Source of the DNA: the human T2T-CHM13v2.0 reference genome, Homo sapiens
Strand: one strand, 5' to 3'
Length of the DNA stretch: 64,000 nt
NCBI RefSeq assembly: GCF_009914755.1
Contig: NC_060935.1
Shown: positions 8,701-64,000 of the stretch, piece after piece
Position numbering within the stretch: the first letter of the stretch is position 1
How the letters are laid out: each line of letters opens with the position of its first letter
Program-made: the position numbers and the translations under genes
Notes under the pieces: generated by a model
What the model was told of the DNA's origin: nothing
Databases searched by the model: none
The model's input: the letters and a program-made list of their open reading frames with translations, nothing else

Positions 8701-9068
8701 GTGAATAATAGGTCTCTGTTTATCACCCAAGCTATTAATTAGACTAAGATTAAAGATGGGGTGGGGTGCATGCTCCAAAGAGTGTCTAAATGGCCGAGAG
8801 CATGAGCTAAGAGGTTGCAGTGACTCTTTCATAGATGGGATATCAGCTGCTCCTGTTCTGCTATGGGCACAGACATAACAAGAGACCTTACGTCACCTGA
8901 ATGCCCTACCCCTAAACTCAAATTGCATCTTCTCCCAGAATTCCACATAAAGTGAACTCTTAAAGCAACTTGTATCATTTCTACTATTGTGACGTATCCT
9001 TACCAGTATTTTGGGTATTTGGATCTCCTAAATGTATGCCTTTCTCTAACATACTTCACCAGTGCTGA

Positions 9069-9477
<409 letters not shown>

Positions 9478-18930: not shown

Positions 18931-19527
18931 TATGGTCCAAGGCCACTTGCAGCTCTGCCCTACCCCACCTCCCCAGCACATGGCCTTCCATGTTCTTTTC
19001 TGATTTTCGCACTCCCAGTCTCCAGTTTTACTTGTTCTAGTGCTTATGGCCCCAGGGATTTGCTCTGGCCCCTGAACACTTGATATATGTAAAAGTGTTG
19101 TGTATAGTTAGGTATTTTGTTACCCCAACTAAGTAGCTGATTTGCTTCTGTCTGGAAGGGTGGGTGGAGGGCATCCTGGGTGGAAGGAAGAGGTAGGCGA
19201 ATGGGTGATACTCAAGCTCTCACCTGCATGCATCACACCATGTTGGTAAATCTTTCCCACCTCTGTGCAGGTCTGGCCTTGGCAGGGATCCATGGAAGTA
19301 ACCGACAACCCTCCTTTTCACCCACAGTTCTGCAGAGAAGCCCAGCCTTATCTATGCCTCGTTCTTACTGCACACCACTCAGGGAATCACATTAAAGCAA
19401 ATAATGAGATTTGCATACAGACATTAGACAAAGAATAGACTCCCTAAGCAGGAAACCACACAGCCCGTAATTGCTGTAGGTATCTAAGGTGTCAGGCCTC
19501 TGCTACCCAGTGAGGCTGCAAACCAGC

Positions 19528-19750
19528 TTTTTCATCATAAAGGAATGAGCTGCCAATGATTTTCAGAGCTTGATTAATGCTCTTCAAACCGATCTCCATT
19601 GGGTGCAGAAGTGAAGCCCGAGGAAGATGGATGTTTCCTATTACTTGACGTAATGACTGTGAGGCAAGCTAATGAAACCTTTACAGCCCGAGTTTACAGG
19701 AAAAAAACCAACAAACACAGATCAATACCTGAGTTACAGTTCCAATGCAT
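19528..19750 (+). mobile_element. Penelope-like retroelement (PLE) reverse-transcriptase fossil
   Basis: Across two frameshifts: FFIIKE*AANDFQSLINALQTDLHW / EEDGCFLLLDVMTVRQANETFTARVYRK / PTNTDQYLSYSSN, matching the PLE RT C-terminal signature F...LN.....I.FT.E.E.DG.LPFLDV.V.R......T.VYRKPTHT..YL...S.HP. Confidence 0.8.
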
Positions 19751-20439
19751 TGATAAATGGATGACAGGCTGTGGGCCTGGCCCCAGCATAAAAAAAGAGA
19801 GCAGGAAGAAAGGTTGGGGGATGTTGAAAGGGAACTGGAGGCAGAAAGAAGAAGAAGGGTTAAACCACCGTGTGGACTGATGGGCCCAAGGGCACCAAGA
19901 GGAGGTTGTAAATCTGAGCACGTGTATGTCAAGGGAAAGAGAAGGACCAGACAGCCAGGAGGTGAGAGGAAGTAAAAAGCGGGCAGGCTGCACAGCCAGA
20001 CTTCCTTCACTCAAGGAATCGGGTCCACAAGTGAGGCTGGGACGCACATCCTGGCCAGGCTGCTCTCATCATGAAATGGGCAGCGCTTCTGATATTCCCC
20101 TGCACTAATTAAAACTTCAGCCCCACTGCTTGCATTCCCAGTTCTCATTATGATTTTCTTCTGGTGACACAGGCATCCCTTTGTTTCCTGAGTCCTAGAA
20201 GCAGGTCCCCGACGAGGAACAACGATGCCTGGACTCAGCTTCAGCCTCTGTTCTTCTACCGTTCAGAAGCCACCCTCCGGCAAGGTGACCCCGGCTGCTG
20301 GATGGGGCAAGCCCAGGAATTCTCGGCTTCTGACACATGACGCATTCATCTTCTCCGACAGTGTTCCCATGCACAACTTGTGGTTCGGGTTGGAAATGCA
20401 AAGTGGAAAAATGCATAGCAGTATCCCCTCCTCCAAGGC

Positions 20440-61207: not shown

Positions 61208-62094
61208 GTACTTATTGGTGTTCCTTCTGCCACCAGAAGCTACTTAGGTTTTTTGTAAATAGGTGGACTGGCTAGGGAGGTTTAGGGAGAGAGGTGTTTC
61301 AATTTACCTTTTCTATACAGATGTAAAAAGAATGGCAGGGTGCGAGACCCTACCTTTAGGGGAGAGATGGCATTGATTGTTTGAAGGATGGTAGTGGCCC
61401 AGGTTTTTGAAAACTATGCCCAATGGTCTATCACAGGAAAGTCTTTTCATCTACTTAGGAGAAGTTGCCTTCCCCTGACCCAGGACAGGAAGGCATAACC
61501 CAGAATTTCCCATTGTTTTTCCAGGCCCTTGTTCCCATTATATTATTCTAAGTGCTCACTTTTCTCTGAATTCAAGGTCGCAGCTCTCTCTCCCTCGTAC
61601 TCAGTACCTAGAAGGTCATAGCATATTGTTCACACTCGCTAAATTCCTTACCAGTTACATTTCAATAAGAAACAATGTTCTTTGCTCCAAATAACTGGTG
61701 CTGCTCATTGCCAGGTTTGCATCTGAAGAGCTGCTTGGGCTGCATTCCGGTGGGCTCTTTCTCAAGAGAGCCTATGGTTCAGGTTTGAATACATAGTGCA
61801 GCAGGGCCTCAGAGAATGGGAGAGGAGCACCTCATTCTCCTGAGATATTAAGCAATGCACACAGCCAGGGCATCATCCCTTAGCCTTTGCTGCATGTCAT
61901 TATCTTGTTCAGTGTACTCAGCACTAATTGCACAATGAACACAAATGTGCTTGGTGAGCTGCGCAGTGTAAAGCAATAAACTGGATGGGAAGATTAGATC
62001 ATGGCCACACCATTGGGGTAAGAGGTGCAGGCAGGCAGAGGGGGTGTGGAAGGAGCAGGGACCAGTGGGTGGAGTGACACTGAGTCTCCCCACT

Positions 62095-62495
62095 GGGAGG
62101 CAAGCATTGCTCTTCAAGACCAGACCACAAGAATGGCAAGCATTGCTCTTCAACACCGGACCACAAGAATGGCAAGCATTGCTCTTCAACACCGGACCAC
62201 AAGAATGGCAAGCATTGCTCTTCAACACCGGACCACAAGAATGGCAAGCATTGCTCTTCAACACCGGACCACAAGAATGGCAAGCATTGCTCTTCAACAC
62301 CGGACCACAAGAATGGCAAGCATTGCTCTTCAACACCGGACCACAAGAATGGCAAGCATTGCTCTTCAACACCGGACCACAAGAATGGCAAGCATTGCTC
62401 TTCAACACCGGACCACAAGAATGGCAAGCATTGCTCTTCAACACCGGACCACAAGAATGGCAAGCATTGCTCTTCAACACCGGACCACAAGAATG
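62095..62495. repeat. 36-bp minisatellite/VNTR (GAATGGCAAGCATTGCTCTTCAACACCGGACCACAA): 10 identical copies plus one diverged 5' copy
   Basis: Perfect copies at 62131-62490, diverged copy at 62095-62130, trailing GAATG. Confidence 0.99.
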
Positions 62496-62619
62496 CTCTC
62501 GTCCCTTGCTTCTTCTTCCCCCTTGACCTCATTGGCCTCTGGGACCTCCTAGCTTTTAACCAGACTGTTAATGCCTAGTACCTAGCAGGCAATCAATAAA
62601 CACATGCTGATTGCAACTA

Positions 62620-64000
62620 GAGAATAATTTAATTCAATTATTCAGAAATTTATTGAATTTCTCTCTTCCAGATATTGTACTAGGTGCTAGAGATGAGATG
62701 ATTTTCCTCTCTAGTTCTAGTCCAGAGAGAAAATTCACCCATAAACAATTTTTAAAAAGTACAATGTCTTAAGAGCTAGAATAGACCTAGACTATTGTTC
62801 TATAAAAGTACACAGAAAGAAGTAACTCTTTTGGTTTACAACATCAGGAGAGCATATAAGAAGTGACCCGTGAGGATGTATTTACACAAGCCACATCTAT
62901 TGACCATCTATGATGTGCCAGGTGTCATGTAAAGCATTAGGGAAAAAAAAGATGCAGAATCATTTTTGTTCTAAAGGGACTTACAGTTTAGTGGGAGAGA
63001 CAGACAAATGATAAGGCATTCAAGTCTAAGCACTTGTGGTGGATTGTAATGGTGTTTACAAACATTGGTTTCATCCTCTGTAGGAGTGCACATGCCCATT
63101 CTTGCCTTGCCTCCCTGAGAGAGGAGTGTGTTTTTCTGCCTCATTGATGTTGGGCTTGGCCATGTAGCTTTCTGTGGCCAGTTGAATGTGAGTATATGCA
63201 ACCTACCCATGTCCTATCAGAAGCTTTAAATTCTATGGCATTGTTCAACTCAGCCTCTTATGTTCCTGTATCATCTGCCATGAGAAAGGCATGTCTCAGA
63301 AGGGGGCTTCCCTTTAGGCTTGAGTCCTAGGAAAGGGGATACATGGAGAAGACCTGAACTTGACCCACAGCCTGAAGCAGAGATTCATCAGCCAGCCTAA
63401 TCTGCAAACATGCAACAAGGGTAACAAATGATATATATTCTTGTTTTCCCATAAACTGCTGGGACTTCGGGGTTGTTTGTTATGTAGTATATCCTAGTTA
63501 AATCTGCCCTAGTACTGTGGTATAATAGAAGTAAGCAGAGAATACGATGAGGAAACATTCAATAAGTTCAAAAGCAAGCCTTGAGCAATGGTCAGCAAAA
63601 ACTGCTTTGAAGAAGAGATGCATGTAAATTAAGTCCTGAGTAAAGAGAAGTTGGAAGGAGAGGAAAGATGATCAAAGAAGTGGGACACTCATACAGAGGC
63701 TCAAATATAATAGCTAGCATGATATATTCAAGACCATCTGGAAAATGAAGATTGATTATGAGCTTATGTATGTACAAGGGAGAGTGTGGAGGACAAGCTG
63801 GGGAACAGACTAGTGGGAGATAAGACTGGAGAGGTAAGAAAAACCATCTTATGAAAGACTTCTGGTACTATGCCAGCAGTTTGGACTTTATATTTTCAAC
63901 TATATTCATGGAAGCGATTTAGAAGAGGGGGTAGGGGAAGTAACTTGGCATTTGAAAGTGATCATTCTGGCTGCATTTGGAGGATTGGATAAGAAGAGAT
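62620..64000 (-). mobile_element. L2 fragments split by an MLT1 LTR
   Basis: 'attcagaaatttattgaat...tgtactaggtgctagaga', 'tgatgtgccaggtgtcatg', 'tttgaaagtgatcattctggctgc'. Confidence 0.7.
63035..63515 (+). mobile_element. MaLR LTR (MLT1I/J-like)
   Basis: 'cattgatgttgggcttggccatgtagctt...ctgccatgagaaaggcatgtc...ggggttgtttgttatgtag'. Confidence 0.7.

What the first reader, a model, noticed from the sequence alone, without database searches (positions are those of the whole stretch)
19528..19750. Readable fossil of a Penelope-like retroelement reverse transcriptase in primate DNA
Seen: ORF 19599-19880 contains EEDGCFLLLDVMTVRQANETFTARVYRKK. Shifting frame at the A7 run (19701-19707) continues it as PTNTDQYLSYSSN. 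The upstream frame from 19528 gives FFIIKE*AANDFQSLINALQTDLHW. Known: this order and spacing matches the C-terminal RT/thumb region of Penelope-like elements (LN..I.FT.E.E.DG.LPFLDV...VYRKPTHT..YL...S.HP), which are not active in mammals. I recall a rare human fossil family (Penelope1_Vert), so this copy may already be annotated. The YxDD catalytic motif is not preserved. Inference: legible protein motifs from such an old element imply purifying selection on the DNA, probably as an exapted enhancer rather than a protein. It also carries a CRE-like TGACGTAA inside the 'LDV' codons.
Basis: partly seen in the sequence, partly recalled or inferred. Interest (0 to 1): 0.8.

Follow-up and report, generated by a model that had tools for sequence, protein, structure and literature searches.

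The report
Conserved Penelope retroelement fossil near NTM
A 225-base scrap of an ancient Penelope-like jumping gene survives upstream of the human NTM gene, broken as a gene but kept almost unchanged in other mammals, which makes it one more example of a known class of recycled transposon relics.

Summary
Window 19525-19749 (+), read with one stop and two frameshifts, matches the segment of Penelope-like element (PLE) reverse transcriptases that runs from just after the YxDD box to the YRKPTHTDQYL motif. A profile of 28 genuine PLE proteins ranked its two largest pieces first and second among 4183 six-frame pieces (14.8 bits each; next best E = 3; 20 shuffles at most 5.9 bits). An X-bridged read-through scores 48.1 bits, ungapped. 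No RT core, GIY-YIG nuclease or ribozyme survives in the window.

Four ORFs from unnamed database records are evidently orthologous DNA of other species. In two different frames they are 39/47 to 27/27 identical inside the PLE segment and 16/52 to 13/21 outside it. All four share the A7 frameshift. So the DNA, not a protein, is constrained.

A second human copy on chr5 keeps the same segment and the same CTTGACGTAATG.

The enhancer role is inferred, not shown. Frith (2022) already reports 54 pre-amniote Penelope protein fossils in human gene deserts, so this is an ordinary member of a known kind. I could not check whether this copy is on his list or in Dfam.

The parts
19525..19749 (+). Fossil of a Penelope-like element reverse transcriptase. 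It covers the segment from just after the YxDD box (RT motifs 6/7) to the start of the thumb (…FLD…YRKPTHTDQYL.F.S). It is read in three pieces.
   Evidence: the X-bridged read-through aligns ungapped to PLE profile nodes 65-136 at 48.1 bits, E 2.7e-13 with Z = 4183; 32-40% identity over 60-74 aa in the 15 best PLE proteins listed; the two main pieces are the top 2 of 4183.
19525..19602 (+). Piece 1 (frame B): SFFIIKE*AANDFQSLINALQTDLHW, with an in-frame TGA at 19546-19548.
   Evidence: Too short to score alone (not listed at E <= 100), but adding it raises the read-through from 32.3 to 48.1 bits.
19600..19620 (.). Zone of the first frameshift (frame B to frame A). The junction cannot be placed more exactly.
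   Evidence: junctions at 19599/19608 to 19611/19620 score 46.2-48.1 bits.
19611..19700 (+). Piece 2 (frame A): VKPEEDGCFLLLDVMTVRQANETFTARVYR.
   Evidence: 14.8 bits, E 0.004, profile nodes 93-127.
19701..19707 (+). A7 run holding the +1 frameshift (frame A back to frame B). All four orthologue ORFs read straight through it, each in its own frame, with the same KK as human.
   Evidence: P0004 and P0007 read KKTNKHRS (frame A). P0001 and P0002 read GKKPTNTD (frame B). Human reads the same in each frame.
19705..19749 (+). Piece 3 (frame B): KPTNTDQYLSYSSNA.
   Evidence: 14.8 bits, E 0.0041, profile nodes 121-137.
19513..19524 (+). Position collinear with the catalytic YVDD box. It now reads RLQT, so the motif is lost.
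   Evidence: consensus RYVDDTF; the alignment starts at the following SF. Placed by collinearity; the local alignment does not cover it.
19646..19653 (+). CRE-like octamer TGACGTAA lying across the L-D-V-M codons.
   Evidence: 2 in the window against 0.26 expected; the same CTTGACGTAATG is in the chr5 paralogue.
19611..19760 (.). Block that I could see to be conserved in orthologous DNA of other species. Its 5' limit is unknown because the orthologue ORFs start here. Its 3' edge is at about 19760-19765.
   Evidence: identity inside versus outside the PLE segment is 27/27 vs 20/55, 26/27 vs 16/52, 48/51 vs 13/21 and 39/47 vs 14/37.

Best explanation
Window 19525-19749 is a relic of the coding sequence of an endonuclease-type Penelope-like retrotransposon. 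Only about 225 bp survive. They encode the RT segment between the YxDD box and the thumb, and they are broken by one stop and two frameshifts.

The element inserted long before the mammals compared here diverged. The rest of it has decayed beyond recognition. This piece has since been held nearly constant as non-coding DNA. The most likely reason is that it was exapted as a cis-regulatory element (enhancer-type transcription-factor platform) in the gene desert about 71 kb upstream of NTM.

Shown: PLE origin; non-coding state; a shared ancient frameshift; a sharp fall in conservation at the 3' edge of the PLE segment.

Inferred: age of at least the amniote ancestor; regulatory function; the target gene.
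For: PLE origin:
- Genuine PLE proteins were fetched independently of the window. They carry RVT_1 plus GIY-YIG and the DKG and YIGET motifs in their consensus.
- Their profile picks the two pieces as the top 2 of 4183.
- The read-through scores 48.1 bits. Shuffles reach at most 5.9 bits.
- Best pairwise match: 40% identity over 72 aa.

Non-coding constraint:
- Four orthologue ORFs from unnamed records, in two different reading frames of the same DNA, are almost identical to human inside the segment and diverge outside it. Fisher p runs from 1.5e-3 to 4.9e-9 with the boundary set beforehand at the end of the profile match.
- Identity in two overlapping frames leaves little room for silent changes, so all codon positions are conserved.
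- The A7 frameshift is shared.
- CpG observed/expected is 0.41 here and 0.19 in the window.

Context: Frith 2022 (PMC9004415; passages and section 10 read) reports 54 pre-amniote Penelope protein fossils in human, mostly in gene deserts or large introns near nervous-system and developmental genes, and reads them as exapted.

A second human copy (chr5:110148696-110148926) keeps the same segment.
Against: - There is no direct evidence of regulatory activity. RefSeq lists functional elements only at 61738-62865 (hub table).
- A PBX-HOX-like pattern is not enriched (12 found, 15.7 expected).
- The species of the four orthologue ORFs are unknown, and they probably stand for only two lineages. The depth of conservation is therefore unmeasured.
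- The 5' edge of the conserved block was not seen.
- Neither Pfam nor a scan of 1.84 billion proteins returned a PLE for the fossil itself. The identity rests on a profile that I built.
- A genome-wide search with a PLE piece did not rank this locus among its 10 candidates.
Confidence: 0.7

Rival explanations
1. Functional conserved non-coding DNA, but not an enhancer. For example a silencer, an insulator or architectural site, or part of an unannotated non-coding RNA.
For: The conservation evidence says nothing about the kind of function. lncRNA genes lie within 100 kb (hub table).
Against: No Rfam family matches anywhere in the window. There is no excess RNA folding energy on either strand (z = -0.31 and -0.72). 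No gene model is annotated in the window.
Confidence: 0.15
2. A neutral relic with no function. It stays legible only because it is younger than assumed or lies in a slowly mutating region.
For: The species behind the orthologue ORFs are unknown. Only four ORFs, probably two lineages, were seen.
Against: In the same ORFs, identity falls from 83-100% inside the PLE segment to 31-62% just outside it. A regional mutation rate cannot explain that. No PLE is known to be active in mammals (Kojima 2018, PMC5753468, passages read). The shared frameshift shows the relic predates the split of these lineages.
Confidence: 0.1
3. A domesticated coding exon: a PLE-derived peptide still translated from the 100-codon frame 19578-19880.
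For: That frame is open in human, and partly open in P0004 and P0007.
Against: The PLE reading needs three frames and passes a stop. The open frame leaves the PLE reading at the A7 run and continues as unrelated sequence that is not conserved between species. Conservation is equal in two overlapping frames. No gene is annotated and no Pfam domain matches.
Confidence: 0.03
4. A chance resemblance to PLE RT, or a relic of another RT class (LINE).
For: Single pieces score only 14.8 bits. A genome-wide pick on chr8 that scored 17.8 bits with the same profile turned out to look like an L1 ORF2 endonuclease N-terminus, which I recognised from recall.
Against: Two adjacent collinear top hits plus a third piece add up to 48.1 bits, ungapped over 72 profile nodes. 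The matched part lies mostly downstream of where Pfam RVT_1 matched in the PLE proteins. No other six-frame piece of the window reached E < 2.
Confidence: 0.02

Closest known systems
Pre-amniote Penelope protein fossils of the human genome (Frith 2022, Mol Biol Evol, PMC9004415)
   Same: Short, frameshifted PLE protein relics, mostly unseen by RepeatMasker (1 of 54 was annotated). They lie in gene deserts or large introns near neural and developmental genes and are read as exapted. Tabulated examples lie near FAT1 and EFNB2.
   Different: I could not see the full list (GitHub/Zenodo). The supplement PDF holds no 'NTM' or 'chr11'. So I cannot say whether this locus is one of the 54. The age of this copy was not measured here.
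Canonical endonuclease-containing PLEs (Penelope/Poseidon, Neptune, Nematis; Craig et al. 2021, PMC8557442, abstract and passages read)
   Same: The fossil matches their RT segment after YxDD through YRKPTHTDQYL at 32-40% identity.
   Different: RT core, DKG motif, GIY-YIG nuclease, pseudo-LTRs and hammerhead ribozyme are all absent from the window. The fossil is a derived fragment, not an element. The clade could not be assigned because the comparison proteins are unnamed.
   Same: An ancient, conserved, low-copy PLE-derived human repeat.
   Different: 'Penelope1_Vert' is in 0 papers of the library.
Exapted transposon-derived conserved non-coding elements in general
   Same: A transposon fragment under purifying selection near a developmental gene (Frith 2022, section 10).
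   Different: Here the retained part is former coding sequence of an autonomous element. No enhancer assay exists for it as far as I could see.

Membership tests
Penelope-like element (derived fragment) | PLE-type RT segment after YxDD: …FT.E.E.DG.LPFLD…VYRKPTHTDQYL.F.S (consensus) | tested here: met
   48.1 bits ungapped over profile nodes 65-136. Top 2 of 4183 pieces. Shuffles reach at most 5.9 bits.
Penelope-like element (intact or recognisable element) | RT core with catalytic YxDD, and the N-terminal DKG motif | tested here: not met
   The full-length 652-node profile hits only nodes 368-411. The collinear YVDD position reads RLQT.
Penelope-like element (intact or recognisable element) | GIY-YIG endonuclease joined to the RT | tested here: not met
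   No hit to the C-terminal part of the profile anywhere in the 64 kb.
Penelope-like element (intact or recognisable element) | Pseudo-LTRs with hammerhead ribozyme motifs (Cervera and de la Pena 2014, PMC4209133; only the start of the abstract in the search listing was seen) | tested here: not met
   Rfam gathering-threshold scan of the whole window gave 0 matches.
Conserved non-coding element (exapted transposon) | Higher between-species identity than the flanks, without a coding pattern | tested here: met
   Inside versus outside: 27/27 vs 20/55, 26/27 vs 16/52, 48/51 vs 13/21, 39/47 vs 14/37, in two overlapping frames. Limits: species unnamed, probably two lineages, 5' side unseen.
Conserved non-coding element (exapted transposon) | Orthologous presence in distant vertebrates (marsupial, bird, reptile, amphibian) | not testable with these tools
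   No vertebrate genomes or alignments are held. Exact 26-mer scans of viral contigs and genome contigs found nothing.
Transcriptional enhancer | Open chromatin, H3K27ac or transcription-factor occupancy, and reporter activity | not testable with these tools
   No such data are held. The hub table lists RefSeq enhancers only at 61738-62865.
Repeat family Penelope1_Vert / UCON13 | DNA match to the family consensus | not testable with these tools
   No Dfam or Repbase is held. The DNA search of the own genome found only the locus itself. One paralogue was found at protein level.

The most novel reading that the evidence does not exclude
The same roughly 200-bp stretch of one ancient PLE family, the RT-thumb coding part carrying CTTGACGTAATG (a CRE/bZIP-like site written by the L-D-V-M codons), was kept at two or more human loci (chr11 upstream of NTM, and chr5:110.149 Mb). 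That would mean this coding segment carried a ready-made regulatory module that was exapted repeatedly, forming a small family of PLE-derived enhancers.
Probability: 0.2. Interest if true: 0.5.

Novelty: new member of a known kind. Interest (0 to 1): 0.3.

Why it matters
It confirms that a reader without tools can recognise a protein fossil that is probably hundreds of millions of years old from raw DNA. It also adds a well-documented example to the class described by Frith (2022), or re-finds one. The example comes with breakpoints, a frameshift shared between species and a paralogue.

For the NTM/OPCML gene desert it marks a candidate regulatory element. It does not change what is known about PLEs or about exaptation.

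Tried and rejected
Searches that returned nothing useful:
- Pfam on the single pieces and on the X-bridged read-through: no relevant hit. The local Pfam copy gave no PF26215 or PF28514 match even on the genuine PLE proteins that the database tags with them. It therefore could not test the fossil against the models that probably cover this region.
- PDB sequence search: noise only.
- Word-indexed protein search with frame A: nothing.
- HMMER scan of 1.84 billion representatives with the read-through: 5 hits. Two are orthologue ORFs. Three are tandem-repeat proteins (fn3 and similar) scored up by repetition. No PLE.
- Exact 26-mer of the conserved core in viral contigs and genome contigs: 0 hits.
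- The degenerate PLE motif in viral contigs: 0 hits. In genome contigs it gave the 16 loci that I used.

Searches of the own genome:
- DNA: only the locus itself.
- Full P0077: nothing, under a stricter first look.
- 130-aa piece of P0077: only chr8:65795276-65795470, E = 3.3. Its translation reads like an L1 ORF2 endonuclease N-terminus, which I recognised from recall, so I treat it as a false positive.
- chr2:194345398-194345502: noise.
- An alignment query is not accepted for this genome.

Motifs and RNA:
- PBX-HOX-like TGATNNATKR: not enriched.
- Structured-RNA reading: no signal.

The supplement of Frith 2022 holds no list of loci.

Full report
**Observation.**
- Frame A (stop to stop 19578-19880, 100 codons) contains EEDGCFLLLDVMTVRQANETFTARVYRKK.
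- Frame B (19663-19764) contains PTNTDQYLSYSSNALING.
- Further upstream frame B reads VSKVSGLCYPVRLQTSFFIIKE, then TGA (19546-19548), then AANDFQSLINALQTDLHWVQK.
- The A7 run is 19701-19707.
- TGACGTAA is at 19646-19653, across the L-D-V-M codons.

By the hub's table, the site is T2T-CHM13 chr11:131,335,525-131,335,749. That is about 71 kb upstream of NTM, and no gene is annotated in the window.

**Getting a fair comparison set.** Nothing in the ready-made libraries names the fossil.
- Pfam gave no relevant hit for the pieces or for an X-bridged read-through.
- The PDB search gave noise.
- A word-indexed search with frame A found nothing.
- A full HMMER scan of 1.84 billion representatives returned only two orthologue ORFs and three repeat-inflated chance hits.

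I therefore fetched natural PLEs independently of the window. A degenerate DNA pattern for a short PLE motif, recalled from memory, found 0 loci in viral contigs and 16 in genome contigs. One contig holds copies spaced 3083 bp apart. Their long ORFs carry RVT_1. One of them recruited 217 homologues, of which 120 were listed. The database tags most of the 120 listed with RVT_1 and PF28514, nearly all with PF26215, and several with GIY-YIG. I confirmed RVT_1 plus GIY-YIG in P0077 and P0087. The consensus of 28 non-redundant members shows DKG, YVDD, FLD…VYRKPTHTDQYL and a YIGET nuclease motif. These are the hallmarks given for canonical endonuclease-containing PLEs by Craig et al. 2021 (PMC8557442, abstract and passages).

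**Test of identity.**
- A 229-node HMM of the region around YRKPT was run against all 4183 six-frame pieces of at least 8 aa in the window. It ranked 19578-19877 first (14.8 bits, E 0.004, nodes 93-127) and 19663-19761 second (14.8 bits, E 0.0041, nodes 121-137). The third hit had E = 3.
- The two hits are adjacent, on one strand and collinear.
- Twenty dinucleotide shuffles of the window gave best scores of 2.7-5.9 bits.
- Reading 19480-19602, X, 19611-19700, X, 19705-19761 (stop as X) gives 48.1 bits. The alignment is ungapped over nodes 65-136, with E = 2.7e-13 at Z = 4183.
- The two-piece reading gives 32.3 bits. Neighbouring junction choices give 46.2-47.6 bits.
- Against the 120 PLE proteins the best pairwise match is 40% identity over 72 aa (P0062). 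The top 15 listed have 32-40% identity over 60-74 aa.

The full-length 652-node profile hits nothing else in the 64 kb. Rfam finds no family in the window, hammerhead ribozymes included. The place collinear with YVDD reads RLQT (19513-19524).

So about 225 bp of a roughly 3-kb element are recognisable. They are broken by one stop, a shift within 19600-19620, and a +1 shift in the A7 run.

One caution on scores. A genome-wide pick on chr8 scored 17.8 bits with the same profile, yet reads like an L1 ORF2 endonuclease N-terminus, which I recognised from recall. Single pieces of about 15 bits would therefore mean little at genome scale. The case rests on collinearity and on the 48-bit sum.

**Constraint.** Two database searches returned four short ORFs from unnamed records that are plainly the same locus in other species:
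- P0001 and P0002 in frame B;
- P0004 and P0007 in frame A.

I set the boundary beforehand at the end of the profile match (19752). Identity to human inside versus outside is then:

| ORF | Inside | Outside | Fisher p |
|---|---|---|---|
| P0001 | 27/27 | 20/55 | 4.9e-9 |
| P0002 | 26/27 | 16/52 | 7.7e-9 |
| P0004 | 48/51 | 13/21 | 1.5e-3 |
| P0007 | 39/47 | 14/37 | 3e-5 |

The flanks are diverged enough that these are not close relatives of human.

Two overlapping frames are both conserved, so the constraint falls on all codon positions. It acts on the DNA, not on a protein.

All four ORFs read through the A-run with the same two lysines as human in their own frame. The frameshift therefore predates their divergence.

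CpG observed/expected is 0.41 in 19525-19765 against 0.19 in the window.

Limits:
- The four ORFs probably stand for two lineages of unknown species.
- The 5' side of the block is unseen because the ORFs begin at about 19599-19672.
- Nothing outside these records could be examined.

**A paralogue.** A protein search of the own genome with the read-through found chr5:110148825-110148920 (E = 0.39).
- Its ORF (chr5:110148696-110148926) hits PLE profile nodes 354-396.
- It finds the chr11 locus as its best non-self match.
- It aligns at DNA level over the same segment. The shared parts include CTTGACGTAATG and the NTDQ codons, where the PLE consensus has HTDQ.

The two are therefore copies of one PLE family. 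The CRE-like octamer came with the element's coding sequence and did not arise later.

My queries covered only this segment. That both copies keep it is therefore biased by how they were found.

**Mechanism.** The best reading is an exapted non-coding element, most probably cis-regulatory.

The regulatory step is inference. It rests on the pattern of constraint, the gene-desert setting next to a neural adhesion gene, and Frith 2022 (PMC9004415; passages, section 10 and a search of the supplement). That paper reports 54 pre-amniote Penelope fossils in human, only 1 of them seen by RepeatMasker. They are often in gene deserts near nervous-system and developmental genes, and the paper argues for exaptation.

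Other points that bear on the reading:
- TGACGTAA is rare in the window (2 found, 0.26 expected), but its function is untested.
- A PBX-HOX-like pattern is not enriched.
- A structured-RNA role has no support.
- A coding role is contradicted by the three-frame reading, the stop, and the unconserved continuation of the open frame.

**Novelty.** The kind is known from Frith 2022 and from Kojima 2018 (PMC5753468), which lists UCON13 as the human Penelope trace.

Whether this copy is already listed I cannot tell:
- the list is on GitHub/Zenodo;
- 'Penelope1_Vert' is in 0 papers of the library;
- NCBI's masking has no stretch of 100 bases or more here (hub table).

My ratings are: new member of a known kind, interest 0.3.

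Noticed in passing
L004/L022 = own genome chr5:110148696-110148926 (+), extending to about 110148990: A second human fossil of the same PLE family and the same RT segment (…IKPEQDRCFSFLDVMALRHLNGNTLIKVYLKY*, then NTDQ in another frame). It shares CTTGACGTAATG with the chr11 copy. Relative to chr11 it lacks 12 bases at the A-run.
   Followed up: partly
L021 = own genome chr8:65795276-65795470: Scored 17.8 bits with the PLE profile, but its translation reads like the N-terminus of an L1 ORF2 endonuclease (recognised from recall). It is a useful example of how high a chance hit can score genome-wide.
   Followed up: partly
L007-L011 (one 12.4-kb contig of a Poribacteria MAG record), and L005, L006, L012-L020: Records filed as bacterial MAGs hold full-length eukaryote-type PLE ORFs (891 aa), repeated head to tail every 3083 bp. 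This is most likely host (animal) DNA binned with the bacterium.
   Followed up: partly
window 8888-8895 (-): The only other TGACGTAA in the window. The third-ranked (non-significant, E = 3) PLE-profile hit lies just beside it at 8956-9117 (+). Probably coincidence.
   Followed up: no
window 19751-19765: TGATAAATGG followed by TGACAG sits at the 3' edge of the conserved block. From recall this looks PBX-HOX-like plus MEIS-like. In P0001 and P0002 the TGA codon here reads W, so the TGACAG is not shared.
   Followed up: partly
P0005, P0006, P0008: Tandem-repeat proteins reach E-values of 1e-3 to 5e-8 against a 61-aa query in the 1.84-billion-protein scan, by summing many weak repeats. E-values from that tool need this check.
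   Followed up: yes
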